A program made the translations under genes and the position numbers. A stretch of DNA of 41,569 bases, taken from positions 1 to 41,569 of the IMG/VR virus record IMGVR_UViG_3300015050_000800; one strand, given 5' to 3'. The notes under the pieces were generated by a model. The model did not search any database. It saw only the letters and a program-made list of their open reading frames with translations, and had not been told where the DNA came from. Source of the stretch: a virus (taxonomy: Duplodnaviria; Caudoviricetes). This document shows, piece after piece, positions 4,270-39,098 of this stretch (within the stretch, counting starts at the first letter, position 1; each line of letters opens with the position of its first letter).

Positions 4270-4280
4270 GGGATCGCAGG

Positions 4281-4312: not shown

Positions 4313-4323
4313 GAGGGCGATCA

Positions 4324-7278: not shown

Positions 7279-7289
7279 GGACATAGCAA

Positions 7290-8030: not shown

Positions 8031-8041
8031 GGCTCGCATAG

Positions 8042-10987: not shown

Positions 10988-11015
10988 CACAACCACCACG
11001 CAATAAATCAAAAAC

Positions 11016-11046
11016 AGCCCTGCTCGCGCGGGGCTTTTCCTTTTTG
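11016..11046 (+). terminator. Rho-independent terminator
   Basis: AGCCCTGC-TCGC-GCGGGGCT stem followed by T-tracts. Confidence 0.75.
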
Positions 11047-11058
11047 GGAAGGGTCTAG

Positions 11059-12042: not shown

Positions 12043-12053
12043 GGGGCATTTAG

Positions 12054-12395
12054 ATGGGCATCACTCTAAACGCCTCGACCACAAATCGCGCGGATTGGAA
12101 AACCAACTTCCAATTCACTGACGGCGATACTGGCGACCTTATCGACTTCACCGGGGCGTCCATCGAGGTCGAGGTTCGCGACCAGCAGGGCTGCTTAAAG
12201 ATCGAAGCCACGACCGACAACGGCAAACTCACCATTCTTTCGCTCGGCGTTATCCAGATGCTTATTCCCGCATCGGAGATGTCGAACATCTGCGCGGGCC
12301 AATATGACATTGGCGGTTTGTACGTTTTGAACGATGAAACCATTTCGCTCTTTACCGGAGAAGTGCAAATCCGCGAAGGGGTGGTGCGCGTATGA
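12054..12395 (+). CDS. Virion adaptor/Ig-like protein (putative tailspike attachment)
   Basis: IDFTGASIEVEVR and GQYD motifs; ATGA-coupled to the tailspike. Confidence 0.45.
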   Translation: MGITLNASTTNRADWKTNFQFTDGDTGDLIDFTGASIEVEVRDQQGCLKIEATTDNGKLTILSLGVIQMLIPASEMSNICAGQYDIGGLYVLNDETISLFTGEVQIREGVVRV

Positions 12396-14785: not shown

Positions 14786-15546
14786 TCGAGACGGTTTACC
14801 AGATCGAAGACGTGATGATCGTTCGTCATTAAGCTCTCAAGGAATCTCGCTGCATCTTCGGGACTGGAAGGCAATGGGCTGGCCGGTCCCTCATATTCGA
14901 CGGAAAAAAGCGCTGAATTGAGATGTGTCGTGGCATTCGCAAGGAAGCCAGACAAGGAGATCCCCGACATCCGTAGCGCCATCGGGTTGCACTCGAAGAG
15001 AAAGACGGGGTTGTGATGTTTGATGACGTGGCTGGCGCCTTTCAACGCAGCAATCTCGTATCCCTCCACATCAAGCTTGATGAACCCAACGGGGCCGAGG
15101 TCGTGCTGACGAACAAAATTGTCGATCGACATTTGTTTAACATCGTATGATCCGGGCTTGTCTTCCATCCTGCTGCCCGAATGATTTCCGGGCATCTCCG
15201 TAAACTTCTCGGTTTTTGTCTCGGCTCCTATAGCCATTTGATGCGCGCTTACGTTGCGACCGAGAACGCCATTTTGTTTTAGATTTGCTTCCAGATAGGC
15301 GAAGCTGATGCGGCTTGGTTCAAACGAATGAACGTGAGCTTCGGGAAGAATGTCATGCATCAGGAGTGCCGCGAGTCCGATATTCGCGCCGATGTCCAAA
15401 ATTCGAGCTTTGGCAAATTGCTTTTGGCGGGTTCTGAGAAATGTGGATAGCCCGCCCAGATCGTTTGCGGGAAGCTGCGCGAAATACGCGTCCTTGGGGT
15501 CTCCTGAAACCTTGTAGGTTTTCGAAAAGCTGACTTCCTTAATCAT
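14782..15546 (-). CDS. FkbM-family SAM-dependent methyltransferase (moron)
   Basis: ILDIGANIG, SFEP and FIKLDVEGYE motifs; antisense to the late operon. Confidence 0.9.
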   Translation of the reverse strand: MIKEVSFSKTYKVSGDPKDAYFAQLPANDLGGLSTFLRTRQKQFAKARILDIGANIGLAALLMHDILPEAHVHSFEPSRISFAYLEANLKQNGVLGRNVSAHQMAIGAETKTEKFTEMPGNHSGSRMEDKPGSYDVKQMSIDNFVRQHDLGPVGFIKLDVEGYEIAALKGASHVIKHHNPVFLFECNPMALRMSGISLSGFLANATTHLNSALFSVEYEGPASPLPSSPEDAARFLESLMTNDHHVFDLVNRLD

Positions 15547-15748
15547 CCACTACAACGCTTCGCAACATCTTAAGCGCGGCATCGGACAAGCCTGCACGAA
15601 TTTCGCTGATGCTCTCTACTGACGGTTCGAGGCCAGCGTAGCGGTTAACTTCTCGAACAAATGCCTCAAGGCCTCTTAATTGAGCGGGCGGCACGTCACC
15701 AATTGGATCGCGCTTTCCCTCAACAATATTGATGACGCTATCTGCCAT
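15539..15748 (-). CDS. Small hypothetical protein (69 aa) coupled to FkbM
   Basis: ATG at 15748 with AGGGAGGA RBS; overlaps the FkbM start. Confidence 0.55.
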   Translation of the reverse strand: MADSVINIVEGKRDPIGDVPPAQLRGLEAFVREVNRYAGLEPSVESISEIRAGLSDAALKMLRSVVVDD

Positions 15749-15817
15749 TTCGTCCTCCCTGATCGCGGGAAGATATAGCCGCGCCTTAAGTTCCGCAACC
15801 GCCCAGAACCGACACCC

Positions 15818-15840
15818 AGCCCGCATCGTGCGGGCTTTTT
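15818..15840 (+). terminator. Intrinsic terminator-like hairpin upstream of the lysis cassette
   Basis: AGCCCGCA-TCG-TGCGGGCT followed by TTTT. Confidence 0.7.
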
Positions 15841-15861
15841 CTATGCCTGAAAGGAAATCCA

Positions 15862-15966
15862 ATGCTCAATAAAATTGGCGAAACCATCGTCCAGACCGTC
15901 CGAGACTACCCCAAGGGCACGCTGATCGTGGCGGGTGTTCTGATCGTTGTGGCGCTGTTTGTCTAA
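15862..15966 (+). CDS. 34-aa single-TM peptide (not in the ORF track)
   Basis: MLNKIGETIVQTVRDYPKGTLIVAGVLIVVALFV; AAGGA RBS; TAATG-coupled to the holin. Confidence 0.6.
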   Translation: MLNKIGETIVQTVRDYPKGTLIVAGVLIVVALFV

Positions 15967-16241
15967 TGCGCCTGATTGACGATTGGCGCGCGGTCCTACG
16001 TTATTCGTGGTCTGCCCGGTTCATGGCGCTCAGTCTCGCGGTCATTATCGCAGAGCCGGTCTTTACCGCCCTCATTGATCTGTTCGTCACGCCTTCTGTC
16101 TGGCTCACCGTTGGCCTGCGCACAGTGAGCGGGCTTCTGGCCTTTGCCGGGATTTACGCTCGCGTCGTAGCCCAGCGCGAGATTGAAACCGTAGTTACGC
16201 CCAAGGGCGCGGCTGACATTAAAGCCGAGGCCAAGGAATGA
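15966..16241 (+). CDS. Holin
   Basis: MRLIDDWR..SWS start, two TM helices, ARVVAQ; directly before the endolysin. Confidence 0.8.
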   Translation: MRLIDDWRAVLRYSWSARFMALSLAVIIAEPVFTALIDLFVTPSVWLTVGLRTVSGLLAFAGIYARVVAQREIETVVTPKGAADIKAEAKE

Positions 16242-16720
16242 CGCCAAACCAACAGAAGGGCGTAACAGCGGGTGTGGCTGCCGTTCTAGCACTCACTGCT
16301 GCTCTGGTCGCGCCATACGAGGGCTTCTACCCCAAAACGTACAAGGACATGGTTGGCGTCCCCACGGTCTGCTTTGGCGAGACTGAAAAGGAAGCCGTCG
16401 CGCTTGGTCGCATTCGTCCGTACACGCGCAAAGAGTGCGAGGACATGCTGGCTGGCTCTCTCCAGAAATACTACGCGGGGATGATGGCATGTGTTCACAA
16501 GCCGATGACCGTCAATATGCAGGTCGCCTTCACTTCCGCCACTTACAACTTCGGAATCGGCGGCTTCTGCAAAAGCTCGATGGCGCGTCTCGTGAACGCC
16601 GGGAAGCCAAAAGAAGCCTGCAACGCGCTGATGATGTGGAACAGGGCTGGCGGGCGAGTGGTTCGCGGCCTGACCATCCGTCGCGCGGGTGAGCGCGCTA
16701 GATGCTTGGAGGGATTGTAA
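16238..16720 (+). CDS. SAR endolysin (GH24 lysozyme)
   Basis: Ala/Gly-rich N-terminal anchor; E-x8-D-x5-T triad (EGFYPKTYKDMVGVPT); YNFG and GLTIRR. Confidence 0.92.
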   Translation: MTPNQQKGVTAGVAAVLALTAALVAPYEGFYPKTYKDMVGVPTVCFGETEKEAVALGRIRPYTRKECEDMLAGSLQKYYAGMMACVHKPMTVNMQVAFTSATYNFGIGGFCKSSMARLVNAGKPKEACNALMMWNRAGGRVVRGLTIRRAGERARCLEGL

Positions 16721-17064
16721 TGCCGTACTGGCTTCAAGCTCAGGCTGCTGGCCTGTGGGCGCTCGTTTGGCATTACGGGGTTGGCGTCGGCGTCTGCATC
16801 CTGGCGCTCGCTTGGGCGTGGTTTATGCCCGTTTTCAAGAAAACATCGCTCTGGGTTGCTCTCGGCGCAATCATCGTCACCACATCATACGGCATAGGAG
16901 TTTCCAATGGATCGGCGCGAGTTAAAGCGCAGTGGGATGCGGCTATCGCTGCTTCCATCGAACAGTCAGAAAAGGCTCGCACTGACGCTGAGCGGGATGT
17001 TTCTGGCGACATTCCTAGCCAGTTGCCAAACGACAGGTACAACCGTGACAACGCGGGAAGGTAG
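16720..17064 (+). CDS. Inner-membrane spanin (Rz-like)
   Basis: N-terminal TM segments followed by a helical domain; follows the endolysin. Confidence 0.65.
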   Translation: MPYWLQAQAAGLWALVWHYGVGVGVCILALAWAWFMPVFKKTSLWVALGAIIVTTSYGIGVSNGSARVKAQWDAAIAASIEQSEKARTDAERDVSGDIPSQLPNDRYNRDNAGR

Positions 17065-17176
17065 GTGCGCAGCGTGGCGCGCAATCACCTATTCGGCCAA
17101 GGGCGATACTAAGCTAACCGTCGATCAAATCCGCACTCACAACCTTGTTGGCCGCAAACTCGGGTGCTGGAAATGA
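16937..17176 (+). CDS. Outer-membrane spanin lipoprotein (Rz1-like)
   Basis: Overlaps the i-spanin in another frame; lipobox LASC. Confidence 0.7.
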   Translation: MRLSLLPSNSQKRLALTLSGMFLATFLASCQTTGTTVTTREGRCAAWRAITYSAKGDTKLTVDQIRTHNLVGRKLGCWK

Positions 17177-17457
17177 CCCGGCGCAAGCCCACAATAGACC
17201 GCGAGGACGGCAACTGGCACTTGGATCGTAAAGTCCCTATAGCGCTGATCCTTGCGATCCTTCTGCAAACCATTGGCATCGGTTGGTGGGGTGCCTCCAC
17301 CAATGCCCGCCTCAACGCCCTTGAAGAAAAGGCCACCTTGGCCTCCACACAGCCGGAACGTCTGGCGCGCGTGGAAACCAAGTTGGAGTCAGTTCAAGAC
17401 GGCATTGTGGAAATCAAATCGATCCTCCGCAAAGAACCTGTGCCGGTTCGGAAATGA
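17173..17457 (+). CDS. Single-TM coiled-coil protein (lysis region)
   Basis: WHLDRKVP, a TM helix, then the coiled coil ERLARVETKLE. Confidence 0.6.
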   Translation: MTRRKPTIDREDGNWHLDRKVPIALILAILLQTIGIGWWGASTNARLNALEEKATLASTQPERLARVETKLESVQDGIVEIKSILRKEPVPVRK

Positions 17458-17627
17458 AGTTCATCGCGCTCTTGATCCTCATCGGTCTAGCGCAATGGTA
17501 CTTCCGCAAGCCTCCGCCTCCCGTCGTTCATATCGTTCCTTATTGTCCATCCGAGACGCTGAGGTTTCAAGACGGCGGTGCGGTGTATCTGCCTTGCAGC
17601 GAAGTCGACCGCTACGAATACGCCTAA
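17454..17627 (+). CDS. 57-aa signal/TM peptide (not in the ORF track)
   Basis: MKFIALLILIGLAQWYFRKPPPP..., ATGA overlap with the previous gene. Confidence 0.5.
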   Translation: MKFIALLILIGLAQWYFRKPPPPVVHIVPYCPSETLRFQDGGAVYLPCSEVDRYEYA

Positions 17628-17648
17628 CTACACACGAAAAGGGGTTTC

Positions 17649-17747
17649 ATGAATCCAGTCGCGACTTTCGCGCTGCTGACGATGCTTGGCCTGTTGTTCA
17701 TCGGCGGCATCATTCATACCTTCAAACTGCGGGGCATCGCATGGTAG
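17649..17747 (+). CDS. 32-aa TM peptide (not in the ORF track)
   Basis: MNPVATFALLTMLGLLFIGGIIHTFKLRGIAW; AAGGGG RBS. Confidence 0.5.
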   Translation: MNPVATFALLTMLGLLFIGGIIHTFKLRGIAW

Positions 17748-18478
17748 GCCCCAAAATCCTCTTTATCGACATTGAGACTGCACCTATTTTAATGACCTCG
17801 TGGTCAATCCGCGCTCCTTATGCGGGCGCGGTCTGGGTTGAACGCGATACTTACATTCTATCCTTCGCCGCTCGCTGGAATGGTGGCAAGAAAACCAAGA
17901 CTTGGGCGCTCCCGGATTATCCCGGCTACAAGCGCAACCGGCACAGCGACAAGGCGATATGCAGCACACTGCACGCCATGCTCGACGAGGCGGATATTTG
18001 CGTTGCTCACAACGGCGATGCCTTCGACATTAAGAAGATCAATTCCCGCCTAGCCGTTAACGGCTTCAAGCCACCATCCCCCTTCAAGACAATCGACACG
18101 CTAAAAATTTCCCGCCGCATGTTCAAGTTCGACTCCCACAAGCTCGATAACATCGGGCGCTATCTGGGCGAGGGGCGGAAGATCCCGAATACGGGTGCGG
18201 CCCTCTGGCGAGGCTGCTCAGAGGGTGACCCGAAATCATGGGCAACCATGAAGCGGTACAACGCGCAGGACGTGGACCTTCTTGTGAGAGTTTACGAGCG
18301 CCTTAAAGCGTGGTCGCCCAACCATCCAAATCTCAATCTGTATTCGCAGCATGTCGGCTGCCCGACGTGTCAAAGCTCTAACGTCCAGCGCCGTGGTGTT
18401 GAGGTGAAAGCCAATACCCGCAAGCAAAGGTTTCAGTGCCAGGATTGCTCGGCGTGGTTTAGCGGGGCTAAGGTATGA
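17741..18478 (+). CDS. RNase H-fold (DEDDy) 3'-5' exonuclease with C-terminal Zn ribbon
   Basis: ILFIDIET, AHNGDAFD, YNAQDV motifs; CPTC..CQDC. Start taken at ATG 17741 rather than 17252. Confidence 0.85.
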   Translation: MVGPKILFIDIETAPILMTSWSIRAPYAGAVWVERDTYILSFAARWNGGKKTKTWALPDYPGYKRNRHSDKAICSTLHAMLDEADICVAHNGDAFDIKKINSRLAVNGFKPPSPFKTIDTLKISRRMFKFDSHKLDNIGRYLGEGRKIPNTGAALWRGCSEGDPKSWATMKRYNAQDVDLLVRVYERLKAWSPNHPNLNLYSQHVGCPTCQSSNVQRRGVEVKANTRKQRFQCQDCSAWFSGAKV

Positions 18479-18681
18479 CCAAGTTCTATCATTTGGAAGA
18501 TTCGGAGTGGGTTCGCATCACCAAGAAAGACCACAAGCACCGCTGCTGCGACTGCTCATTAACCCATATCGTGAGCTATAGAAGCGGCCCCAATGGCTCA
18601 CTGGAAACGCGATGGAAGATCGACGCGAAGGCCACAGCCGCAGCTAGGCGCAAGTTCAAGTTCACGCCGGACGAGGATTAG
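18475..18681 (+). CDS. Small hypothetical protein (CCDC..H metal-binding)
   Basis: ATGA-coupled to the exonuclease. Confidence 0.6.
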   Translation: MTKFYHLEDSEWVRITKKDHKHRCCDCSLTHIVSYRSGPNGSLETRWKIDAKATAAARRKFKFTPDED

Positions 18682-18951
18682 TCACTGCGGAATAATCTCC
18701 CCGTCTATGATGTTGCAGGCGCGTGCCTCGTAAGCATCGTTATAGAACCTGATTTCTACTTGGCCTTTGATGTTGCATTTAGGGCATTTGAATCTGCGCT
18801 CTATCTCAGCCCATGTCGTTCTAGGTAGGTCAGTGATGTTGATAGGAGCCATGTAGTGACAGGGGTTGTTGTTAATCATGCCCTTGCAGTAGACGTGAAT
18901 CTTCTTTGATCCGTTATTTATAGAAGATTGAACTGTTCCTGTAAGAGGCAT
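18682..18951 (-). CDS. Zn-ribbon hypothetical protein
   Basis: C..C and CPKC; its ATG abuts the outer box of a repeat copy. Confidence 0.6.
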   Translation of the reverse strand: MPLTGTVQSSINNGSKKIHVYCKGMINNNPCHYMAPINITDLPRTTWAEIERRFKCPKCNIKGQVEIRFYNDAYEARACNIIDGEIIPQ

Positions 18952-19295
18952 GGTTCAGAGAAGATGCTCGCAATGAGGGATCGTGGACTACGAGGGGTCA
19001 CATACTGAGTTTACTCCTGCATTAGCCAACACCTCTGCAAAGGGAGGCCTTGGTTTTTTTACTGCCCCTAATGCGGGTGACGCACTCACGGCATAAGCAT
19101 CGTCATAAATTTTTTCGACATCGAACGGCTCTGTCAGCAGTCCATTGATGTAAAATCTGGTCTGCGCTACGGAGCGATGCCGCCAATCAGAGTCGGGCGA
19201 TGTCTGCTCCCAAAACTCTATCGAGATAAACTCAGTTCGTGCGCTCTCAGTCATGTTTCGATTCCGGCTTTGCGAGTGGAGCCTTTTTCTGAACC
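18952..19295. mobile_element. Cassette 1, bounded by inverted bipartite repeats (18952-19013 and 19227-19295)
   Basis: Outer GGTTCAGA..CTCGCAA / TTGCGAG..TCTGAACC; inner ACTGAGTTTA / TAAACTCAGT (perfect 10-bp inverted pair). Confidence 0.7.
18988..19254 (-). CDS. Hypothetical protein (cassette cargo)
   Basis: Start and stop both lie within the repeat copies. Confidence 0.55.
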   Translation of the reverse strand: MTESARTEFISIEFWEQTSPDSDWRHRSVAQTRFYINGLLTEPFDVEKIYDDAYAVSASPALGAVKKPRPPFAEVLANAGVNSVCDPS

Positions 19296-19464: not shown

Positions 19465-19846
19465 GTTCAGAAAGAGACTCACCGCAGAAAGCGGGCAGAG
19501 AGCAGAACGGGTCATTCGGCGAGTGAGTTAACGGTCGCCGCACTCTCGATTCACCGCATCGATCAAAGCGCGCAATGACTTGCCGGATATTGTGCCTACA
19601 TATACTTGGTAGCGCATGACCCTCTCGTGGAATTTTCCATCCTCAAACCAGACGTAGCCGTAGTGATCCCACGCATAATGCGGCATCCAATGCGTGCCCT
19701 TGCGAAGCTCCTTGTCGGCCCCCTCTGGCATTTCATGGTCGCTGTTGCTGTAGCTGAAATCAGCTTCGGTTCGATCTTCTAGATCACTCAGTACTGATGT
19801 CTCGCTCATCCTCTATCTCTCCTTCTGCGGTGAACCTCTTCTGAAC
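19465..19846. mobile_element. Cassette 2, bounded by inverted bipartite repeats (19465-19530 and 19786-19846)
   Basis: GTTCAGAAAGAGACTCACCGCAGAA vs reverse complement GTTCAGAAGAGGTTCACCGCAGAA; inner AGTGAGT / ACTCAGT. Confidence 0.75.
19528..19809 (-). CDS. Hypothetical protein (cassette cargo)
   Basis: GAGG RBS; N-terminal MSETSVLSD comes from the repeat. Confidence 0.6.
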   Translation of the reverse strand: MSETSVLSDLEDRTEADFSYSNSDHEMPEGADKELRKGTHWMPHYAWDHYGYVWFEDGKFHERVMRYQVYVGTISGKSLRALIDAVNRECGDR

Positions 19847-21104: not shown

Positions 21105-21286
21105 AGGACGACCTCGCGCTTAGGCGCAACGGGAACAGAATAGGTATCGTCTGTGGATAGCGGCGACAAGCCGATCCGAATGGTGCCGTCTGATAGAATC
21201 TCGACCGTTCCCGCACCAGCAGCTTTCGCCGCGCGAATAGCCTTCGCGACGGTCGCCTGCGTGATGAGGGAAGGGCGGCGGGACAC
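21101..21286 (-). CDS. Excisionase-like small basic protein
   Basis: 61 aa, overlaps the int start; ITQATVAKAIRAAK motif typical of alphaproteobacterial prophage xis genes. Confidence 0.65.
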   Translation of the reverse strand: MSRRPSLITQATVAKAIRAAKAAGAGTVEILSDGTIRIGLSPLSTDDTYSVPVAPKREVVL

Positions 21287-21435
21287 TCAGTCAGCCTTCT
21301 CTCGTTGAAGGGGAGTGACTGCTTTCTGCGGTCTTGGCTGCTCCTGAATCTATCTCCCCCGTCTTAGAAATTGGATCAGCAGAAACTCCACTCACGAGGC
21401 CGACATTCCCCGGAGCATCAGCATTCGTATCCGCA
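21285..21435. repeat. Back-to-back repeat copies (21285-21343 and 21373-21435)
   Basis: ACTCAGT..GCTTTCTGCGGTCTTGGCTGCTC, a spacer of about 30 bp, then GGATCAGCAGAAACTCCACTCAC..GTATCCGCA. Confidence 0.7.
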
Positions 21436-21881
21436 ACCGCTGGCGGTGCAGGAAGTAGCTGCCAATACGTTGCGACACCGCAGAGGCCGTGCCACGTCCA
21501 CCCGCCGCCGTTGTGGTCGATCCAGTAAGCCTCATGAGCGGCTTCCCATCCTTCGGCGACAGGGTCGTCGCTATACTTCGCATGGGCGTGGACGAACCAA
21601 ATCAAGATTCGAGTGCCGTCTCTCGGTGCAGTCTCAATAGGTTGCCACGCCGTCTCTCTTACCCGGTGTAGGGAGGCGCGAAGCTTTTCGATCTCGTCGT
21701 TCAGCCGCTTTTCCATCCCGCGCGTCGCTGACAGATGGTCACGATCAGCCGCTTGCAGTTCAGCTATGAGGGTGGCTGCTTCGCGACACTGCTCACCAAG
21801 AGGGATGTCGGAACCATCGGCGCGACGAGACGCATCGGCGATACGAACCAACCTCTCCACTATCCCGCTCTCTTTTATCAT
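21291..21881 (-). CDS. DUF551-like domain protein (mosaic)
   Basis: WQPIETAPRDGTRIL..TYWQLLPAPP. Confidence 0.7.
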   Translation of the reverse strand: MIKESGIVERLVRIADASRRADGSDIPLGEQCREAATLIAELQAADRDHLSATRGMEKRLNDEIEKLRASLHRVRETAWQPIETAPRDGTRILIWFVHAHAKYSDDPVAEGWEAAHEAYWIDHNGGGWTWHGLCGVATYWQLLPAPPAVADTNADAPGNVGLVSGVSADPISKTGEIDSGAAKTAESSHSPSTREG

Positions 21882-21891
21882 GAAGGAGTCC

Positions 21892-21951
21892 TTTTCAGTG
21901 AAGATGTGAACAAAGCTCTTGTCCCGACTTCATTCAGTTCCGCGACTGAGA
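21892..21951. repeat. Repeat copy (partner not found)
   Basis: TTTCAGTGAAGA..CAAAGC, then TTCCGCGACTGAG 53 bp in. Confidence 0.55.
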
Positions 21952-22161: not shown

Positions 22162-22222
22162 CCATCTCCTTATTTCTGTATCAGGTGGAAGAAATTATAA
22201 TCAGCAAAGACGGCACGAGGAA

Positions 22223-22432
22223 TCATCCCCCGCCATCGGTTCGACGCGTCTCCGCATCCGTTGGCTCACCAGTAATGACCTCGATAAGCGCCTCTTCGTA
22301 ACTCAGCCCGCGAACATTCTCGCAATCCTCAAGTGCATCTCCAGCCGTGAGGTTAGGTTTCCCGCACAGATAACAAGTTCCAGCGAAGGCCTGTCCTTTT
22401 GGCGATGTGCGATTGATATGATGTTTAGTCAT
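22223..22432 (-). CDS. Hypothetical protein (RTSPKG..CYLC)
   Basis: ORF with CxxC; C-terminus TDAETRR is repeat-encoded. Confidence 0.55.
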   Translation of the reverse strand: MTKHHINRTSPKGQAFAGTCYLCGKPNLTAGDALEDCENVRGLSYEEALIEVITGEPTDAETRRTDGGG

Positions 22433-22676: not shown

Positions 22677-22727
22677 CTTAAATCTCCGAAGCGGTTGAAG
22701 TACGTGGGTCAAATGTTCTGTGTCGAT

Positions 22728-23711
22728 TTATGCTTCGTGAGTGGAGCGATCTTCTGAACCCATCTTCCCCGGCCCCTGTAGGTCGAGGGCGGCTCCCGAC
22801 TGTTCTATGAGAGCGGCGGGGGCGGCAAACATATGTTTGGCAGCGAACCGAAGCGCAGCAGCACACGCCTGAAACGTGCGGACATAGCTGACGTTCGGTC
22901 CCGCCGCTAAACCGTTACGTGCTGCTTTGTCGTGATCGAAGGCACGCTCGTTAAACTCTTTCGCCGTGAAAGGGCCAGTATAGCCGTGACCATCAATCGG
23001 CACCGCAGCCGGGGACGGGGATGCAAGCGCGGCCCGCATAAGATTTTCGGCGTATTCCTTCACGCCATCATATCGCCCGCGCTCATAAGCGTTTGTCAGA
23101 ACGTCCTTGCCCGTTTTGGGCCGCGCCATCCGCACCAGTTCTCTCAACCCTTCCACAGGGGGTTGTGGTGCAGCCAAGACGGCAGGAGGCGTAGATTCAG
23201 AACGATTGCGGGCATCCGTATCCGCATCCGGCAACGTTGGAAGTAGCCTCCAGTGTGTTGGAGGGCTGGGCCACATGACGCCTTCGCCGTTCGTCGGCAG
23301 GCGATCATCTTTGTGCCGAAAGCGAACTATGCGCGTGGCACCCCATCCCTTGGTTGTCGCGCACGCTAAAAACCAAGTCCCATCCCTCGGAGCCGTCTCA
23401 ATCAGTTGCCAGCCGGCAGTCTCAGTCGCAGATGCTTCCGTTCTGCTCGACGTAGGCTTTGCAGTTTGAGTCTCTTTCTGAACCCGCTCCCCGGCTGAGG
23501 TGTCTGCGGGGGTGGCGCGGGTGTTCCATTGCTTCACTGAATCCTCTTTAAGCCCGGCTGTCGTGATGGGGCCGAAACAATCATCGCTCGAGCAATAAAT
23601 TTGCCCCATGATCCCGCGCGGGTGACCATTATCTTTCGCTTCTCCGCCGCAGAACGGACACGGCTTCAACGCCTCCGCTACAGCTAGACTTGCTTCGGGG
23701 GTGTTGGTCAT
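22728..23711 (-). CDS. Mosaic protein: Lar-like Zn domain, DUF551-like domain and unknown domain
   Basis: LKPCPFCGGEA..C..C..WNTR, then WQLIETAPRDGT; domains are separated by in-frame repeat copies. Confidence 0.72.
   Translation of the reverse strand: MTNTPEASLAVAEALKPCPFCGGEAKDNGHPRGIMGQIYCSSDDCFGPITTAGLKEDSVKQWNTRATPADTSAGERVQKETQTAKPTSSRTEASATETAGWQLIETAPRDGTWFLACATTKGWGATRIVRFRHKDDRLPTNGEGVMWPSPPTHWRLLPTLPDADTDARNRSESTPPAVLAAPQPPVEGLRELVRMARPKTGKDVLTNAYERGRYDGVKEYAENLMRAALASPSPAAVPIDGHGYTGPFTAKEFNERAFDHDKAARNGLAAGPNVSYVRTFQACAAALRFAAKHMFAAPAALIEQSGAALDLQGPGKMGSEDRSTHEA
23168..23484. mobile_element. In-frame domain cassette (DUF551-like), bounded by repeats 23168-23226 and 23420-23484
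   Basis: GTGCAGCCAAGACGGCAGGAGG..GTATCCGCA / TCTCAGT..TGAGTCTCTTTCTGAACC; the right copy shares GTTCAGAAAGAGACTCA and GAGCAGAACGG with the 19465 copy. Confidence 0.72.
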
Positions 23712-23715
23712 GGCT

Positions 23716-23982
23716 TCACCAATTCAGGTCTGAGGAAAGCAGCGGGCGGCCCATCGGGCGGTCGAGTTGGCCGCTCTCGCAAGCGACATCGAGCGCCTCG
23801 ATACGAGATACGAACCTTCCCGCGTCGGTGTAGAAACCTTCATCATCGCCAGCGGTGGCCTTGTACGGCTCCGGGTCGCCAAGCTGCGCGCGAAGCTGCC
23901 AGTGCGATTTGTGGCCGTGGTGGACTTCGCCACGCCGCTTAATGGCAACGCTTACTAATCTCTCGGGTGCGTTTTTGCTCAC
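23716..23982 (-). CDS. Conserved-type phage hypothetical protein (EGFYTDAGRFVSRIEA)
   Basis: GGAGG RBS; coupled to its neighbours. Confidence 0.65.
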   Translation of the reverse strand: MSKNAPERLVSVAIKRRGEVHHGHKSHWQLRAQLGDPEPYKATAGDDEGFYTDAGRFVSRIEALDVACESGQLDRPMGRPLLSSDLNW

Positions 23983-24512
23983 AGCTTTCCTCCAAGGGAG
24001 AGAGTTGGATCAGCAAAGCCCGCAGGTGTATTCGATCCCGCGCTATCGGCTCGACGCGTCTCCGCGTTGTCTAGCGTGCTTGGCAGATAGCCATTAGCCC
24101 AACCGTAATTGATCGCCGCGATCATATGCTCGACGGCCTGGTGTCGTCCGTCGCAAGGAAGCCCGTTGTTTGGACAGACGCCACCATGATCGGCGCAATC
24201 ACGACAGCGCCCGCCGTAGGCGTTGATGTATTCAACTGTTATGTAATCGTCGGAAATTTTCTTCGGTGATCGACTTAGACCCTGAGCGGACTGCTCATTG
24301 CAGTGCCCGCCATCTGCGGATTTTGTCTGCCCCGAACCATCTGGGAGGGAAGCGGCGAGGCGGTGCCATTCTCGCAACGGTTTGACGATGACAGACCCGC
24401 CGCAGTTGATGCCAATGCCGCCGCTTTCCGTGACGTGAATGGAATCGCAGTAAGATGTTTCGTTGGCCGCGAGCCAGATAACTCGATCAGTGTTTTTCGT
24501 TCCGCCTGTCAT
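23979..24512 (-). CDS. Two-domain mosaic hypothetical protein (C-terminal CRDC..CP..C domain)
   Basis: ATG 24512 overlaps the upstream stop; repeat-encoded linker. Confidence 0.6.
   Translation of the reverse strand: MTGGTKNTDRVIWLAANETSYCDSIHVTESGGIGINCGGSVIVKPLREWHRLAASLPDGSGQTKSADGGHCNEQSAQGLSRSPKKISDDYITVEYINAYGGRCRDCADHGGVCPNNGLPCDGRHQAVEHMIAAINYGWANGYLPSTLDNAETRRADSAGSNTPAGFADPTLSLGGKL
24007..24332. mobile_element. In-frame domain cassette, bounded by repeats 24007-24066 and 24273-24332
   Basis: GGATCAGCAAAGCCCGCAG..GTCTCCGC / ACTTAGA..ATCTGCGGATTTTGTCTGCCC. Confidence 0.6.
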
Positions 24513-24772: not shown

Positions 24773-25206
24773 GGCTGGGGACTCCGGGTCTTCAAGGCTG
24801 CGGCACAAAGCGCCAGCGCGGGGCTTGCGGCTTCGGCCTCGAATGAAATGTCATTGAAGTTGTCGGGTGGATAAAGCCATGCCGAGCCGGGGTGCCGGGG
24901 GGACCATTCGACGGACACCGCGAAACCCTCCGGCACCAGCGTCATCGCTGCGTCTACGGAGGAGGTGTAGGCTGGCGCGGCATAACGCTTGTGCTTTTTT
25001 GATGTCTTGTTGGCGAGTGTGAGGAAAACAGTAACTCGACCGGGCGCGTCATCAGCCTCAAAGGTCCAGCGCCAGCCGTCACTCAGGGTTGGCAACGTAC
25101 CGCTAAAGCATGGGCAGCCGAGTGCCGCCTCGATCTGGCCATCCAACTCCCGATCCGGCCCCGTCGCCTTCTCCAGCCTCTCTACCAATCCTGCAAGGTC
25201 ACTCAC
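24769..25206 (-). CDS. Phage hypothetical protein (LEKATGPDRELD..PAYTSSVDAAMTL family)
   Basis: GTG 25206 with GGAG RBS; an alternative ATG at 25269 lies inside a repeat. Confidence 0.65.
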   Translation of the reverse strand: MSDLAGLVERLEKATGPDRELDGQIEAALGCPCFSGTLPTLSDGWRWTFEADDAPGRVTVFLTLANKTSKKHKRYAAPAYTSSVDAAMTLVPEGFAVSVEWSPRHPGSAWLYPPDNFNDISFEAEAASPALALCAAALKTRSPQP

Positions 25207-25239: not shown

Positions 25240-25794
25240 GGTGAAGCAAAGATCGCAGAAAGCTGTCATCGAACAGAACAGTTCATTCCGCGACTGAGTT
25301 CACTTCTTCGATTTCAGCTTGTCGGTTTCTTCCTTGATCCATGTCTTGAGCAGATCGACGCCGGGGTTCACAACGTCCTGCACGGCGCTGGAACTGATTG
25401 CGCGCTCGCCCATTTCAGAACCGGCGATGAGAAGCATTGTTTGGCGGGAAGGAATAATCGTTGCGAGCGCCGCGCCGCCGACGAGAACCACGGCGGATAA
25501 CTTCAAGCCATGACGCATCTTGCCGCTGATGTATTTGTCTTCTGCGGTATACTTATTTTCATCAAAGCCTTCGCCTAGATAAAAAGCCATAAGAGGTATG
25601 CCGATGACGGCAACGCCAATAATCGCAAGGGCGATACCGCCAGCAATGACGTCGCGCGCGCCCTCGACAACCTGCGTCAGATAGATAAACCAAGAGAGAT
25701 TGTTCATTGCGTAGCCCCTTCGCTGTTAAACTCAGTACGCGCGGCAGATGTTCTGTCGCGGTGATTGCATTGTGAGTGGAGTTTCTTCTGATCC
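25240..25794. mobile_element. Cassette bounded by repeats 25240-25300 and 25727-25794
   Basis: AAAGATCGCAGAAAGC..CGCGACTGAGTT / TAAACTCAGT..GTGAGTGGAGTTTCTTCTGATCC. Confidence 0.75.
25300..25707 (-). CDS. Two-TM membrane protein (IPS..TM..IAGSE family)
   Basis: Two hydrophobic segments; fills the cassette exactly. Confidence 0.7.
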   Translation of the reverse strand: MNNLSWFIYLTQVVEGARDVIAGGIALAIIGVAVIGIPLMAFYLGEGFDENKYTAEDKYISGKMRHGLKLSAVVLVGGAALATIIPSRQTMLLIAGSEMGERAISSSAVQDVVNPGVDLLKTWIKEETDKLKSKK

Positions 25795-26164: not shown

Positions 26165-26568
26165 TTCCCCTCCTTGAGTGAGGAGAGGGTGGCGTCAACC
26201 TTGCGGAGCAGAATTACAGCGTTGGCAAAGCTCGCAATGATGGCGGGGCCAGTCGCCTTTACGTCAGGGTTGGTGAGGTCGGATAGGAGAGTTTGGCACT
26301 CTTCCAACGCCTTCACAGCCGCTGCGATCTTCGCTTCGTTCGCTTCATGGGAGTTCACGGCTTTGACGATGAAGGCGGCGTTGGCGCGTTTGGCGCGCGG
26401 GGAAATTGTTGATGACTTTCCGCAATCCGCCACTGTCTGCCCGTCAATACCAACGACGTAGACTCCATCCGTTTCCCAAAGCAGTGGCGTATGCCCACCC
26501 ACTACCTGAGCATCCTTTGGGGAGGAGTTGTTCAGTGAAGGTTCGCAGAAGGATGGATCGCGGCTCAT
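26161..26568 (-). CDS. Hypothetical protein (HTP.W..ANAAFIVKAVNSHE family)
   Basis: Typical phage early-gene motif; start lies inside a repeat copy. Confidence 0.65.
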   Translation of the reverse strand: MSRDPSFCEPSLNNSSPKDAQVVGGHTPLLWETDGVYVVGIDGQTVADCGKSSTISPRAKRANAAFIVKAVNSHEANEAKIAAAVKALEECQTLLSDLTNPDVKATGPAIIASFANAVILLRKVDATLSSLKEGK

Positions 26569-26928
26569 AATGATGGTCCTCGCACTGAGTTAGGCAGGAA
26601 GCTGGCGGATAGCTTTGACTTCGCCGCCGAACTCAATCGAAGTCCCGTCATCTTGCGAGTGAACGGTGTCGATAAGCAGATCAACGCGGACCAGCACTTT
26701 GCCGCCGTCCCGGATGAGCTTCGCAAGCGCTCCGCGACCTTGCTTCACATCGATGATGGCGAAGTCTGATTTGAAATCAGGAACGGAGTGAACTGGGCGA
26801 GATGCCATTGCAGGACACCGAGTGATCGTTACTTTTTGCGCTCGCATCTGTTTTCCCCTTCGCTAAACTCAGTTTCGGAAGCGCCTGTTGGCCGCGTGGC
26901 TGGCCTTGTGACGATCCTTGGCTGAACC
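26530..26928. mobile_element. Cassette bounded by repeats 26530-26592 and 26864-26928
   Basis: GTTCAGTGAAGGTTCGCAGAAGG..CACTGAGTTA / TAAACTCAGT..CCTTGTGACGATCCTTGGCTGAACC. Confidence 0.75.
26590..26847 (-). CDS. Hypothetical protein (cassette cargo; first gene of the leftward operon)
   Basis: GAAGGGG RBS next to the inner box; stop codon TAA abuts the other inner box. Confidence 0.65.
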   Translation of the reverse strand: MRAQKVTITRCPAMASRPVHSVPDFKSDFAIIDVKQGRGALAKLIRDGGKVLVRVDLLIDTVHSQDDGTSIEFGGEVKAIRQLPA

Positions 26929-29697: not shown

Positions 29698-29996
29698 TGC
29701 GCCAGCGCCTCAAGAACCGTCGCTTCAACGAAACATTCGAGTTCGAGCATGGCGGCGTTCGCTTCACTGCATCCTATGGCCGTGACGAAAACAACAAGAT
29801 CAAGGAACTGTTCCTGTCCGGCGGAAAGGCTGGATCTGTTGTCGAGGCAATGATGAGCGACGCATCCACGTCAATCTCGATTGCCTTGCAGAGCGGTGTA
29901 AAGCCTCATGAGCTTGCTCATTCGATGGTTCGTAATCCTGACAGTTCGCCAGCATCGCCTATCGGCGTTGTTCTCGATGACATGGTGATGGGATGA
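29694..29996 (+). CDS. Stand-alone TSCPD-like domain (class II ribonucleotide reductase C-terminal type)
   Basis: RQRLKNRR..TFEF..ELFL..KAGS..ISIALQSG. Confidence 0.7.
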   Translation: MMRQRLKNRRFNETFEFEHGGVRFTASYGRDENNKIKELFLSGGKAGSVVEAMMSDASTSISIALQSGVKPHELAHSMVRNPDSSPASPIGVVLDDMVMG

Positions 29997-30709
29997 GCCG
30001 AATTGAACAACTAGCAGAAGGCGTGACGCTCTATCTCGGAGATTGCCGCGAGATATTGCCGACGCTCGGCAAGGTTGATGCGGTTGTGACTGATCCGCCT
30101 TATGGGATTGGCGCGGACAAGGCTGCTGCTGACGCGGCACTCCAGCGCATCAAGGCCGATGGAAAGTCCAAAGCTGGGCGCGGTTGGAAATTCTACGGAG
30201 AGACAGATTGGGACAATGGCAGACCGCCACTAAGCCTGATTTTGTCTCTTTGCGAGATGAGCGAATATCAGATCATTTGGGGCGGAAACTATTTCACGGA
30301 CGTTCTGCCGCCCACCATGCAATGGTTGATTTGGGACAAGGGCCAGCGCGACTTTTCATTGGCAGATTTTGAGATGGCGTGGTCCTCGCAAAAAGCCGCG
30401 TCTCGAATCTTTGACTATCCCCGCGCTGCTGCGCTGCAGGACGGCAAGGAGCATCCCACGCAAAAGCCTATAGAGGTCATGAAGTGGTGCCTTGAGTTCT
30501 TGCCAGAAAAATGCCGAACGATTGTGGACCCGTTTATGGGGTCTGGAACGACTGGTGTGGCTTGCGCGAAGGTTGGACGAAACTTTATCGGGATCGAACG
30601 AGAGCCTAAATATTTCGACATTGCTTGCCATCGAATTGCTGACGCGCTTGCACGTCCAGACCTATTCATAGAACCCCCCAAGCCCGTAAAGCAGGAGGCA
30701 ATGCTTTGA
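29993..30709 (+). CDS. Orphan N6/N4 DNA methyltransferase (beta class)
   Basis: TDPPYG precedes HPTQKP and DPFMGSGTT. Confidence 0.92.
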   Translation: MSRIEQLAEGVTLYLGDCREILPTLGKVDAVVTDPPYGIGADKAAADAALQRIKADGKSKAGRGWKFYGETDWDNGRPPLSLILSLCEMSEYQIIWGGNYFTDVLPPTMQWLIWDKGQRDFSLADFEMAWSSQKAASRIFDYPRAAALQDGKEHPTQKPIEVMKWCLEFLPEKCRTIVDPFMGSGTTGVACAKVGRNFIGIEREPKYFDIACHRIADALARPDLFIEPPKPVKQEAML

Positions 30710-30888: not shown

Positions 30889-31331
30889 GCAGTCAAGATT
30901 CGCAGAAAGCGATCAATGCGGCCAACACGCAAGGTCTCGCGACTGAGTTTGGCCTCATGGTGGACTATGCGCGTGCGGTGATCATCAACACGCCGTTTCC
31001 GCCGTCCACAAATAACCTTTTCATCAACGTGGCGAAGGGCCGTATTCCGTCCGCGCGGTATGCCGACTGGAAGCAAGACGCCGGTTGGGCACTCAAGGCG
31101 CAGCGCCCGAAGTCGATCAAGGGTCCGGTTGTCCTTCGCTATCAATTCCAGGAAGGCCAAGACCGCCGCAAGCGCGACATTGGCAATCTTGAAAAGGCCC
31201 CGACCGATTTGCTCGTTGAGCATGGCGTGATCGAGGCCGACGACAACACGATTGTGCGCGGGATCAGCTTGTCGTGGTCGAAGCACATTACCGGCGCGCG
31301 TGTCGAGATTATTCCAATTTCTAAAGCGTAA
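30885..31331 (+). CDS. rusA: RusA-family Holliday junction resolvase
   Basis: PPSTNNL, RDIGNLEK..DLL..GVIEADD. Confidence 0.88.
   Translation: MSSQDSQKAINAANTQGLATEFGLMVDYARAVIINTPFPPSTNNLFINVAKGRIPSARYADWKQDAGWALKAQRPKSIKGPVVLRYQFQEGQDRRKRDIGNLEKAPTDLLVEHGVIEADDNTIVRGISLSWSKHITGARVEIIPISKA
30887..30950 (+). repeat. Repeat copy forming the RusA N-terminus
   Basis: GAGCAGTCAAGATTCGCAGAAAGC, then CGCGACTGAGTTT 55 bp in. Confidence 0.72.
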
Positions 31332-31583: not shown

Positions 31584-32364
31584 TCGCGCTGACCCTATTT
31601 CATCCGGCCCATTTACAGCCGGACATAACCGCCCACCAAGTCCGATTGAGCTTGCTGGCGGGACCATCGACGCCATGTCCGAGTTCATGAAGGACAACCC
31701 AGTCATCGCGGATGAGGAAGTCGCGCGCAAGGCTAAGCTGTTGTGCGACCGAGCCAAGGCCGCACTGGAGGAAATCGAACAGGAGCGCGACAAGTCAGTT
31801 CGTCCCCTGAACGAGAAGGTCGCGGAGATCAACGCCAAGTACAAGGCGTTGCACAATACAGACCCGAAGAAGCCCGGAACGTATGATCGTATCTTCGTTG
31901 AACTGAAATCGCGACTGGCGGCGTTCCTTCTCAAGCAAGAGGAGATTCGTCGGAAGGCTGCCGAGGCGGCTGCGGCTGCGGCAGAAGAGGCCGAGCGGAT
32001 TGCCCGTGAGGCTGATGAACGGGATAGGCAGGCCCGCGACAATGCCGCCGCTGGCGAGCTTGACGTGGACATTGTTGCCGTCACCCAGGAAGCCGACACA
32101 GCTTTCACCGAGTTTGAGAAAGCATCGCGATTTGCGGACCGTGCCGAGCGCGACACGAAGGTAAAGCTTGGCGGCGGGTTTGGGCGTGCTGCTTCGCTCC
32201 GCACTGTCGAGACCCTTCACCTCAATAGCTACAACCTTGCGATCAAGGCCATCGGCCCGCATCCGAAGATTGAGGAGGCCATTCTTGCGGCTGCTCGCGA
32301 GTACCGAAAGGCTCGCGGCGCATTGCCCGAAGGCGTCACCGCAACACAGGAGCGCAAGCTATGA
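31573..32364 (+). CDS. Coiled-coil recombination-module protein
   Basis: GHNRPP motif and long coiled coil; directly upstream of the annealase. Confidence 0.6.
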   Translation: MLLDRADPISSGPFTAGHNRPPSPIELAGGTIDAMSEFMKDNPVIADEEVARKAKLLCDRAKAALEEIEQERDKSVRPLNEKVAEINAKYKALHNTDPKKPGTYDRIFVELKSRLAAFLLKQEEIRRKAAEAAAAAAEEAERIAREADERDRQARDNAAAGELDVDIVAVTQEADTAFTEFEKASRFADRAERDTKVKLGGGFGRAASLRTVETLHLNSYNLAIKAIGPHPKIEEAILAAAREYRKARGALPEGVTATQERKL

Positions 32365-33059
32365 CCTTTAATGAAGATCAAGTAGCGGCGCTCAAGGCCC
32401 CGCTTTCGTCGTCGCTGGTGAAGTCACGCAAGCAGGGTGGCCGGGACGTTAGTTATATCGAAGGCTGGAAAGCTGTCGAAGAAGCGAACCGCATCTTTGG
32501 CTTTGATGGCTGGACCCGCGAAACCGTTGAGATGAAATGTGTCTCTGAGGGTGAGCGGGCCATCGGCCAGCGCGGCGATACCGGCTTTGGCGTGACATAC
32601 ATCGTCAAGGTCCGCGTCATGGTTGGCAACGTATGTCGTGAGGGTTGCGGTGCTGGTCACGGTATCGACCGAGACTTGGGCCAGGCTCATGAGAGCGCGT
32701 TGAAGGAAGCCGAAACCGACGCCATGAAGCGCGCGTTGATGACGTTCGGCAACCCATTCGGGCTGGCTCTGTACGACAAAACGCAAGCTAATGTTTCTGA
32801 CGACACCCCGAGTAAGCCGCGACCGGCGCAGAAGCAGTCAATCCTGCCGGACGACTTCAATGCCCGCGTTGAATACATGGTGACGTGCCGGGAAACCATT
32901 GCCGCATTCACCGACGTTGAGAAGCTGGGCGCGTGGTGGAACTCGGATGAGCAGAAGGAGGCTCGCCGTCAACATCAACTCGAAACTCACCAAGTAGACG
33001 CGCTCAAACAGGCCGTCATGAATCGTCGTGACGAACTTAGCAAAAAGGAAGCAGCATGA
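32361..33059 (+). CDS. Rad52/Rad22-family single-strand annealing protein (Sak)
   Basis: SYIEGW..ANRIFGFDGW..KEAETDAMKRA..FGNPFGL.LY. Confidence 0.92.
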   Translation: MTFNEDQVAALKAPLSSSLVKSRKQGGRDVSYIEGWKAVEEANRIFGFDGWTRETVEMKCVSEGERAIGQRGDTGFGVTYIVKVRVMVGNVCREGCGAGHGIDRDLGQAHESALKEAETDAMKRALMTFGNPFGLALYDKTQANVSDDTPSKPRPAQKQSILPDDFNARVEYMVTCRETIAAFTDVEKLGAWWNSDEQKEARRQHQLETHQVDALKQAVMNRRDELSKKEAA

Positions 33060-36844: not shown

Positions 36845-37375
36845 GCAGAAAAGACCGCACAAAGCCTAAATCGAAAACAACAACTGAACACACGAACTGA
36901 GTGGAGCGAGAATAAATGAGCATTCAGACAAAGCGAATTTCAGAAGTAGCGCGCGGTCCGTTTCTTTTTTGCAAGGAAACTTGGTCGATGGATGGTAGCG
37001 ACCCCGTCGATATGGACGCAGTATACAACGCTAACGGTGATTATGTCGGTGATGTGAAGTGCGCCGAAGAGCTTGAGAAGCGCGGCATATCACCAGAGAA
37101 GCGGACACCAACATCAAACGTTTGCTCAATCGGCTTCAGTGAGCGTGAGCAAAAGTGGTTCGGCTGGTCACACCGAGCGATCTACGGGTTCAAGGTTGGC
37201 GACGTGGTGAAGGAGGGCGATTGTGCTGCCGACAGTCTGCCTGCTGGGTTTGAAGCGAAGACCATGGATGACGCCAAGGAAATGGCTAAGGCGTTCGCTG
37301 CTTCGGTGTCCTAACTCACTCGCGGGACGGGGCATCACGTCCGCGATTTATGCTTTCTGCGAATCTTTTCTGAAC
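36843..37375. mobile_element. Cassette bounded by repeats 36843-36902 and 37312-37375
   Basis: GAGCAGAAAAGACCGCACAAAG..ACTGAGT / TAACTCACTCGC..GCTTTCTGCGAATCTTTTCTGAAC. Confidence 0.75.
36916..37314 (+). CDS. Conserved-type phage hypothetical protein (CSIGFSEREQKWFGWSHRA), cassette cargo
   Basis: Fills the cassette; stop codon abuts the inner box. Confidence 0.7.
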   Translation: MSIQTKRISEVARGPFLFCKETWSMDGSDPVDMDAVYNANGDYVGDVKCAEELEKRGISPEKRTPTSNVCSIGFSEREQKWFGWSHRAIYGFKVGDVVKEGDCAADSLPAGFEAKTMDDAKEMAKAFAASVS

Positions 37376-38836: not shown

Positions 38837-39098
38837 GATTCAGAAAAGATCGCAGAAGGCTGACAATGAGTGAAGCTCCGGCATCTGTACTGAGTGATCC
38901 TCAGTACATCATTGCTTCTCCGTCATTTATCGAGCAGTTGCATTTAGCGTCGGATCGCTTTGGGATCTACCGAGAGCGCAGACTGCTGGCTCGGCACTTG
39001 CCGTTCGTTCGAGAGTACCGAGGCGAAGAATGGTGGCTCACTCAGTAATCATCTCTCGTTGTCCGCATTCCCCGCTTTCTGGGAGTCTTGCCTGAGCC
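38837..39098. mobile_element. Cassette bounded by repeats 38837-38895 and 39040-39098
   Basis: GATTCAGAAAAGATCGCAGAAGG..ACTGAGTGA / TCACTCAGT..CCCGCTTTCTGGGAGTCTTGCCTGAGCC. Confidence 0.72.
38866..39048 (+). CDS. Hypothetical protein (cassette cargo)
   Basis: N-terminal MSEAPASVLSD resembles MSETSVLSD of ORF 19528-19809. Confidence 0.5.
   Translation: MSEAPASVLSDPQYIIASPSFIEQLHLASDRFGIYRERRLLARHLPFVREYRGEEWWLTQ

What the first reader, a model, noticed from the sequence alone, without database searches (positions are those of the whole stretch)
22728..24512. Repeats are read through in frame and delimit protein domains (domain shuffling)
Seen in sequence: the 327-aa ORF reads Lar-like Zn domain, repeat linker RVQKETQTAKPTSSRTEASATE, DUF551-like domain, repeat linker DADTDARNRSESTPPAVLAA, a third domain, then the repeat tail GSEDRSTHEA. 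ORF 23979-24512 reads domain, linker GQTKSADGGHCNEQSAQGLS, Cys-rich domain, tail NAETRRADSAGSNTPAGFADP. ORF 21291-21881 ends by reading through two back-to-back copies. Domain boundaries coincide with the boxes and no stop codons intervene. Inference: the repeats act as stop-free, hydrophilic linkers that let single domains be combined into new fusion proteins.
Basis: partly seen in the sequence, partly recalled or inferred. Interest (0 to 1): 0.8.

Follow-up and report, generated by a model that had tools for sequence, protein, structure and literature searches.

The report
Paired repeats bracket swappable phage genes
In this bacterial virus and its relatives, a ~60-base DNA element sits in facing pairs around single genes or protein domains that differ between near-identical relatives, so the pairs likely mark the ends of swappable gene cassettes, and the fused proteins are likely the cases where a cassette sits in frame rather than the purpose of the repeat.

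Summary
The read-through is real, but it is a small part of a larger system. The window is a circular 41.4-kb temperate phage with 22 copies of a 52-61-bp three-box element. Eighteen copies form nine inverted pairs around one gene (one is anti-Thoeris Tad6) or one domain. Only 3 copies have 30 or more codons on both sides.

Related phages hold the same pairs at the same sites with other cargo: 59 pairs, 46 cargo clusters, up to 10 at one flank. In the Afipia clevelandensis genome the copies are confined to the prophage. In contigs 95-99% alike, the DUF551-like and Cys-rich modules are replaced within 2-9 nt of the inner boxes, so swapping at the repeats is shown.

No target duplication, two-sided empty site or shared recombinase was found. 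Best reading: ends of single-gene cassettes, probably placed by an enzyme acting in trans and reshuffled by short-homology recombination. Not found in ten literature searches.

The parts
22728..23711 (-). 327-aa fusion ORF: Lar Zn ribbon (aa 14-66), entry element, DUF551-like module, exit element, two further modules (about aa 185-230 and 238-312), stop inside a third element
23421..23480 (+). entry element (read outer to inner), in frame, aa 78-97
23227..23420 (-). cargo: DUF551-like module, replaced 23228-23416 by a diverged module of the same length in a close relative
23171..23226 (-). exit element, GCGGAKAC sub-type, in frame, aa 162-181
22700..22756 (+). degenerate entry element holding the stop of the 327-aa ORF; partner of 22202-22254
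22202..22254 (-). exit element, GCGGAKAC sub-type, holding the stop of the 69-aa ORF
23979..24512 (-). 177-aa fusion ORF: N-terminal module (aa 6-54, 48 homologues), entry element, Cys-rich cargo module, exit element tail
24274..24329 (+). entry element, in frame, aa 62-80
24067..24273 (-). cargo: Cys-rich module; close relatives diverge at 24069 and 24283
24011..24066 (-). exit element, GCGGAKAC sub-type, in frame, aa 149-168
21291..21881 (-). 196-aa ORF: two modules joined by non-element linkers, DUF551-like module, exit element, entry element
21377..21437 (-). unpaired exit element, GCGGAKAC sub-type; absent in close relatives, which diverge at 21367
21286..21340 (+). unpaired entry element; holds the stop of the 196-aa ORF and the GTG start of the xis-like gene
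21896..21950 (-). unpaired exit element
18956..19291 (.). pair (exit 18956-19009, entry 19231-19291) around an 88-aa gene that starts inside the entry copy
19468..19843 (.). pair (exit 19468-19527, entry 19787-19843) around a 93-aa gene; cargo replaced 19532-19800 in a close relative
25244..25790 (.). pair (exit 25244-25298, entry 25731-25790) around a 135-aa gene
26533..26924 (.). pair (exit 26533-26589, entry 26868-26924) around an 85-aa gene whose homologue is a plain gene in G004
30890..30947 (-). unpaired entry element at the start of rusA
36846..37372 (.). pair (entry 36846-36901, exit 37315-37372) around Tad6 (PF25188, E 8e-40); this entry flank adjoins 10 different cargo clusters across relatives
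38841..39094 (.). pair (entry 38841-38894, exit 39041-39094) around a 60-aa gene
32361..33059 (+). Rad52/Sak-family annealing protein (PF04098, E 1e-38): candidate for short-homology exchange; role inferred, not shown

Best explanation
The repeats are a three-box ~60-bp DNA element that stands in facing pairs around single genes or domains, the enclosed pieces differ between near-identical phages, and the pairs likely serve as the two ends of gene cassettes that are probably first placed by an unidentified enzyme cutting just outside the outer box and then likely reshuffled by the phages' own short-homology recombination. SHOWN: the anatomy (inner box ACTCAGT, variable ~30-nt spacer, middle box GCTTTCTGCG, outer box TCTTNNCTGAAC); inverted pairing; a small difference between entry and exit ends; cargo of about one ORF; different cargo at fixed sites; breakpoints in and at the elements. 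INFERRED: protein recognition of the boxes, the placing enzyme, and the role of Sak/RecT-type proteins. The fusion ORFs of the finding are inferred to be cassettes that sit in frame inside a gene. Exchange between such copies keeps the frame, so domains are swapped there, alongside swaps at ordinary coding linkers.
For: Pairing: of 85 neighbouring copies within 700 bp, 56 face each other with inner ends, against 17, 8 and 4 for the other arrangements; 18 of 22 copies in the window are paired. Two kinds of end: middle-to-outer spacing is 12 nt in 24 of 36 entry ends and 13 nt in 25 of 36 exit ends. Boxes are conserved at nearly fixed spacing while the spacer varies, which suits protein binding rather than plain homology. 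Cargo: 59 pairs fall in 46 clusters, and one flank adjoins 10 clusters. The cargo ORF's stop ends 0-5 nt from the exit inner box in 26 of 52 ORF calls (the choice rule favoured this). One cargo family sits in pairs at two different hotspots (L101/L134). Cargo homologues occur as plain genes elsewhere. Outer junction: same cargo with a different flank breaks in the middle or outer box or up to about 11 nt beyond in 9 of 11 comparisons. The stretch between outer box and fixed flank varies: 13 junctions of 3-103 nt at one site, 11 of 7-19 nt at another. Relatives carry an element end joined at 26160 and 23669, where the window has none. Reshuffling: breakpoints of same-flank, different-cargo comparisons spread from -20 to +65 (83 comparisons). 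20 of 48 breakpoints in close relatives lie within an element plus or minus 10 nt, against 16% expected. Rad52-like proteins recombine short diverged sequences (PMC3945230, passages).
Against: No empty site with both flanks: 7 of 7 and 3 of 3 true flank hits carry the element. No target duplication in 53 pairs. No recombinase or transposase is shared by the carriers: integrases and annealing proteins differ between the window, G001 and G013, and none was recognised among the cargo ORFs scanned. No single crossover point. 28 of 48 breakpoints lie outside elements, 12 of them 26-49 nt beyond an outer box. Four of 22 copies are unpaired. The breakpoint enrichment is inflated because conserved elements are what short contigs match. 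Many loci are overlapping or related records, so counts are not independent events.
Confidence: 0.5

Rival explanations
1. Linker model without a dedicated enzyme. The element is an expression or regulatory signal (it often carries a start, a ribosome site or a stop) that is kept at gene ends and therefore doubles as a homology patch for Sak/RecT-type recombination, like PeSLs of T4-type phages.
For: Breakpoints are spread through the element and at other linkers. Starts and stops lie inside or beside the boxes. No enzyme, duplication or empty site was found.
Against: One motif in opposite orientations before and after a gene is not what a promoter, terminator or ribosome site gives. Promoter-like and terminator-like matches are at shuffle level (4 vs 4.3; 10 vs 9.2). 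There is no consensus fold and only a weak hairpin tendency. The spacers diverge while the boxes stay.
Confidence: 0.25
2. One reading: the repeat is selected as a stop-free hydrophilic peptide linker for building fusion proteins.
For: In-frame read-through in three ORFs here and in L101 and L247. The same linker joins different domains. The GCGGAKAC exit sub-type keeps one frame in 4 of 4 matches.
Against: Only 3 of 22 copies are internal linkers. Frames are not more open than shuffles, and one frame is mostly closed, 9 of 84. Modules also shuffle without the element.
Confidence: 0.1
3. Strict site-specific cassette exchange: a recombinase swaps cargo between resident site pairs at one fixed crossover in each end.
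For: 8 of 48 breakpoints lie at the inner edge (-10 to +6), against 3.6% expected. Sites are fixed and cargo varies.
Against: Breakpoints are spread over 85 nt, and spacers travel with cargo in some lineages and with flanks in others.
Confidence: 0.1
4. Independent miniature mobile elements that insert singly and survive at gene boundaries.
For: Unpaired copies exist, and one-sided new junctions are seen at 26160 and 23669.
Against: Strong facing-pair bias, 56 of 85. Entry and exit ends differ. No copies were found on the host chromosome.
Confidence: 0.05

Closest known systems
Botstein/Campbell linker model and PeSL cassettes of T4-type phages (PMC2839356; abstract and passages read)
   Same: Conserved short sequences border single accessory genes, and recombination between them swaps modules.
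   Different: PeSLs are promoter plus stem-loop units that yield mini-circles. Here the copies face each other, show no promoter or terminator signal above chance, have three spaced boxes, and are sometimes translated.
Mycobacteriophage mobile elements MPME1/2 (PMC4351075; passages read)
   Same: Small phage-borne unit of inverted repeats around one ORF, a few extra bases at the junction, and hybrids by homologous recombination.
   Different: MPMEs carry one fixed 123-residue ORF. Here the cargo is variable (46 clusters) and no empty site was found.
Inverted or palindromic sites around cargo in P2-like and other enterobacterial phages
   Same: Two kinds of short ends bracket swappable accessory and defence-related genes, and the enzyme is unknown.
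   Different: Those notes describe 24-34-bp palindromes. This element is 52-61 bp, asymmetric, and in alphaproteobacterial phages. Sequence kinship was not tested.
Ea22/DUF551/Lar mosaic genes of the lambdoid exo-xis region (PMC10834534; passages read)
   Same: Same genomic position, same portable domains (DUF551-like, Lar), variable C-terminal modules.
   Different: The passages read describe no bounding DNA element. Here some of the module boundaries are marked by a genome-wide paired element.
Non-autonomous composite transposons such as TIMEs (PMC4133298; search listing only) and integron gene cassettes (recalled)
   Same: Paired ends around passenger DNA (TIME); cargo trimmed to about one ORF (cassettes).
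   Different: No target duplication, no transposase, no attC-like fold, and ends are inverted rather than in tandem.

Membership tests
DDE composite or miniature transposon (TIME/MIC type) | terminal inverted repeats around passenger DNA | tested here: met
DDE composite or miniature transposon (TIME/MIC type) | target-site duplication | tested here: not met
   no 3-6-mer duplication above shuffles in 53 pairs; later recombination could have erased it
DDE composite or miniature transposon (TIME/MIC type) | cognate transposase or autonomous partner | tested here: inconclusive
   none among scanned cargo ORFs or shared genes; host genomes not searched for one
Integron gene cassette | attC single-strand hairpin | tested here: not met
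   no consensus pairs; spacer z -0.5 to -0.65 vs control -0.16 to -0.27
Integron gene cassette | one site per cassette in direct orientation | tested here: not met
   facing pairs dominate
Integron gene cassette | cargo is one tightly trimmed ORF | tested here: met
   with the stated selection bias
PeSL cassette | sigma-70 promoter plus terminator stem-loop | tested here: not met
   an alphaproteobacterial promoter type would not be covered by that scan
PeSL cassette | mini-circles from recombination between copies | not testable with these tools
   needs inverse PCR or raw reads; only contigs were available
MPME | fixed single ORF between the repeats | tested here: not met
   46 cargo clusters
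MPME | a few extra bases at the junction with a known empty site | tested here: inconclusive
   variable junctions but no two-sided empty site
Linker-bounded module (Botstein model) | homology between relatives ends in conserved linkers that flank the module | tested here: met
Enterobacterial P2 Z/fun-type sites | 24-34-bp palindromic site sequence | not tested
Lar (PF14354) | profile match above the curated cut-off | tested here: met
   31 bits vs 28.6
DUF551 (PF04448) | profile match above the curated cut-off | tested here: inconclusive
   no hit for the window's modules; sub-threshold hits in homologues; precomputed hits in 4 listed homologues of the 196-aa ORF and 1 of the 177-aa ORF
Rfam RNA family | match at gathering score | tested here: not met
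   0 matches in the window

The most novel reading that the evidence does not exclude
A dedicated, undescribed gene-capture system of alphaproteobacterial phages: an unknown recombinase uses two-ended three-box sites to lift single genes or single domains, including anti-defence genes such as Tad6 and Acb2/Tad1, and to drop them at translation starts or in frame inside genes, so that it builds new fusion proteins as well as new operons.
Probability: 0.3. Interest if true: 0.85.

Novelty: new variant of a known kind. Interest (0 to 1): 0.65.

Why it matters
How phages gain and swap single accessory genes, and how the mosaic Lar/DUF551/Ea22-type genes are assembled, is usually put down to chance or illegitimate recombination. 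Here a defined sequence marks both ends of dozens of swappable units, at gene and at domain scale, in a cultured lysogen (Afipia clevelandensis ATCC 49720 prophage). That makes the linker hypothesis directly testable. The pair is also a bait for finding new anti-defence genes: 2 of the few annotated cargos are Tad6 and Acb2/Tad1, and most of the rest have no Pfam match.

Tried and rejected
Integrase as the enzyme: of 16 loci with integrase relatives, only the 95% identical one showed elements; the 15 at 49-67% identity showed none in the flanks held, and carriers have unlike integrases.

Hairpin or attC reading: rejected. Known RNA: none. Target duplications and a fixed terminal CA: not found. 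Empty sites by flank patterns: none; 5 of 8 hits of the second pattern were unrelated chance matches and were dropped.

Host-chromosome repeat: rejected for G011. 11 of the 15 positive genomes had only partial, weak matches, which I counted as chance. A sample of 150 other genomes of the order gave none (incomplete genomes do not show absence). GenBank phages and plasmids gave no real match. L126 and L190 were dropped from the model as probable chance hits, along with 8 further weak or partial copies (104 of 114 aligned). Loci L166 and L173-L175 are the window itself and were removed.

The single-sequence fold of the 327-aa protein was too poor to use (pLDDT 37.6). The search of protein representatives was not available, so remote homologues of the Cys-rich module and of aa 185-230 remain unsearched. 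No RNA holder listed.

Papers read without bearing: 10.1101/2023.04.06.535777, PMC3556154 and PMC3091744 (passages). The original MPME paper was not held. I recalled a report of inverted-repeat-bounded accessory-cargo elements in enterobacterial phages; searches did not list it, so it is unverified. Supplements were not opened.

Full report
SETTING. The window is one virus record of 41,569 bases with a 123-nt end overlap. It has a P22-like portal, capsid, terminase, primase-helicase, RusA, a Rad52/Sak protein and a tyrosine integrase. The finding lies in the leftward accessory operon upstream of the xis-like gene and integrase. The one named host genome with a prophage carrying the same element is Afipia clevelandensis ATCC 49720.

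THE ELEMENT. Iterative profile search found 22 copies in the window, none in the structural region 1-18,900 (best hit there E 0.06, partial). Each copy has an inner box ACTCAGT, a variable spacer of about 30 nt, a middle box GCTTTCTGCG and an outer box TCTTNNCTGAAC, and spans 52-61 nt. A leave-one-out test recovered 18 of 21 copies. Reversed sequence gave 0 hits at E<0.1 in 1.5 Mb. There is no consensus fold, only a weak hairpin tendency in the spacer, no Rfam match, and promoter and terminator matches are at shuffle level.

PAIRING. Eighteen of the 22 copies form nine pairs whose inner boxes face 146-445 nt of DNA; four are unpaired. Pattern scans of viral, metagenome and genome collections and whole-record fetches gave 188 profile hits in 171 non-redundant loci, many from overlapping or related records. 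Of 85 neighbours within 700 bp, 56 face inward, against 17, 8 and 4 for the other arrangements. The upstream and downstream ends differ: middle-to-outer spacing is 12 nt in 24 of 36 entry ends and 13 nt in 25 of 36 exit ends. In the 4.4-Mb Afipia genome all 18 matches at E<=0.01 lie in a 40-kb span, the prophage. Three of 150 related genomes had full-length copies, each beside phage-type genes or a segment like the window's. 0 of 150 other genomes of the order had one. A relative with an 83% identical capsid protein (G004, 33 kb, incomplete) has none.

CARGO. 59 pairs hold 46 cargo clusters, and single flanks adjoin up to 10 clusters. Of 56 cargos examined, 52 gave an ORF call. In 26 the stop ends 0-5 nt from the exit inner box, in 22 it lies 4-49 nt past it, and in 4 well inside the cargo. 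The rule for choosing the ORF favoured near stops, and a few calls are on the wrong strand. Recognised cargos are Tad6 in the window and Acb2/Tad1, a YspA-type SLOG protein and a DNA methylase in relatives; most have no Pfam match. One family sits in pairs at two different hotspots, and several cargos have homologues with no element nearby.

THE FINDING ITSELF. The quoted linkers are element copies read outer-to-inner before a module and inner-to-outer after it. Logan contigs of three runs, mostly 95-99% alike, give the direct test. The DUF551-like module is replaced between 23228 and 23416 by a diverged module of equal length, and the Cys-rich module is left at 24069 and 24283, all within 2-9 nt of inner boxes. 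The same contigs also replace 22827-23142, 23715-23978 and 24361-24505, and modules at 24967-25142 and 26201-26301, with ends outside any element. Of 48 breakpoints read from the displayed rows (further rows were not shown), 20 lie in an element plus or minus 10 nt (16% expected), 12 lie 26-49 nt beyond an outer box, and 16 lie elsewhere. The enrichment is biased upward, since short contigs match at conserved elements.

Protein homologues agree. None of 8 covers the whole 327-aa protein. P0002 keeps the linkers with other domains between them. P0003, P0004, P0005 and P0006 carry single modules with other partners. 48 homologues of the 177-aa ORF match its first module and mostly end at aa 50-59. 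The 196-aa family swaps modules between short non-element linkers, with or without the exit copy. These searches were limited to 0.55-1.75 times the query length.

IS IT A DESIGNED LINKER? Not as a family. Three of 22 copies have 30 or more codons on both sides, and the six frames of 84 non-redundant copies are open in 45, 9, 47 and 32, 28, 40 cases against about 40 and 31 for shuffles. Copies in ORFs are the most decayed as DNA sites. An exit sub-type with a GCGGAKAC inner box is read in one frame in 4 of 4 pattern matches, with 0 in the reversed control. It may be a lineage kept in coding use.

MECHANISM. Conserved boxes at nearly fixed spacing, two kinds of end and facing orientation point to protein-bound ends of a unit (inference). 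When the cargo is shared and the flank differs, the break lies in the middle or outer box or up to about 11 nt beyond in 9 of 11 comparisons. The stretch just outside the outer box varies in length at two fixed sites and is constant at a third. Relatives show element ends joined at 26160 and 23669, where the window has none, but only one side was seen. This suits placement by an enzyme that leaves no duplication, as tyrosine transposases of the Tn916 type do (recalled, not from a call). Against it: no duplication, no two-sided empty site, no shared recombinase. Breakpoints of same-flank comparisons spread from -20 to +65, which suits exchange by Rad52-like annealing proteins (PMC3945230, passages); the window has Sak and G013 has RecT. 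I put 0.5 on placement plus reshuffling and 0.25 on linkers with no dedicated enzyme.

COMPARISON AND NOVELTY. It works like the linker model and PeSL cassettes (PMC2839356, abstract and passages) and resembles MPMEs (PMC4351075, passages), but it fails defining tests of each, and of DDE transposons and integron cassettes. Mosaic DUF551/Ea22 genes are known (PMC10834534, passages). Earlier notes of this scan describe two-ended 24-34-bp sites in enterobacterial phages (several later marked in doubt) and linker-bounded modules in an E. coli DUF551 gene; these are leads, not support. Ten paper searches listed no description of this element; the library lacks most subscription journals. Verdict: new variant of a known kind, interest 0.65.

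Noticed in passing
window 36916-37314: Tad6 anti-Thoeris gene is the cargo of a pair; an Acb2/Tad1 gene is cargo in L164, so unannotated cargos are candidates for anti-defence genes.
   Followed up: partly
L203 (also the flank of L140 and L184): A ~100-bp insert with its own short terminal inverted repeats lies just outside an outer box; other relatives have 40-58-bp inserts at the same place.
   Followed up: no
window, 26-49 nt beyond outer boxes (e.g. 19318, 23143, 23979, 24360, 26494): 12 of 48 breakpoints cluster at this distance; it may be a second class of coding linker or a longer homology block. Unexplained.
   Followed up: partly
window 19231-19291, 25731-25790, 22700-22756, 21377-21437: Longer copies hold, between middle and outer box, a stretch that matches the reverse of a common inner-box edge, as if they were hybrids of two ends.
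   Followed up: no
L251:9529-9981: A cargo ORF contains a further inner-box-like motif in frame near 9775, which suggests two cargos fused through a partial element.
   Followed up: no
window 21286-21340 and 30890-30947: Unpaired entry ends sit at the starts of the xis-like gene and of rusA.
   Followed up: no
window, element middle-to-outer stretch: Many copies hold GANTC or GATC there; a methylation link (CcrM/GcrA, recalled) was not tested. The phage encodes a putative DNA methylase at 29993-30709.
   Followed up: no
L256:9798-10021: A 12-bp tandem array in a relative that lacks the element.
   Followed up: no
L128, L129, L133 (G012): Element-bearing phage contigs are filed in a MAG labelled Sterolibacterium; they also appear as viral or metagenome contigs, so the host label may be a binning effect.
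   Followed up: no
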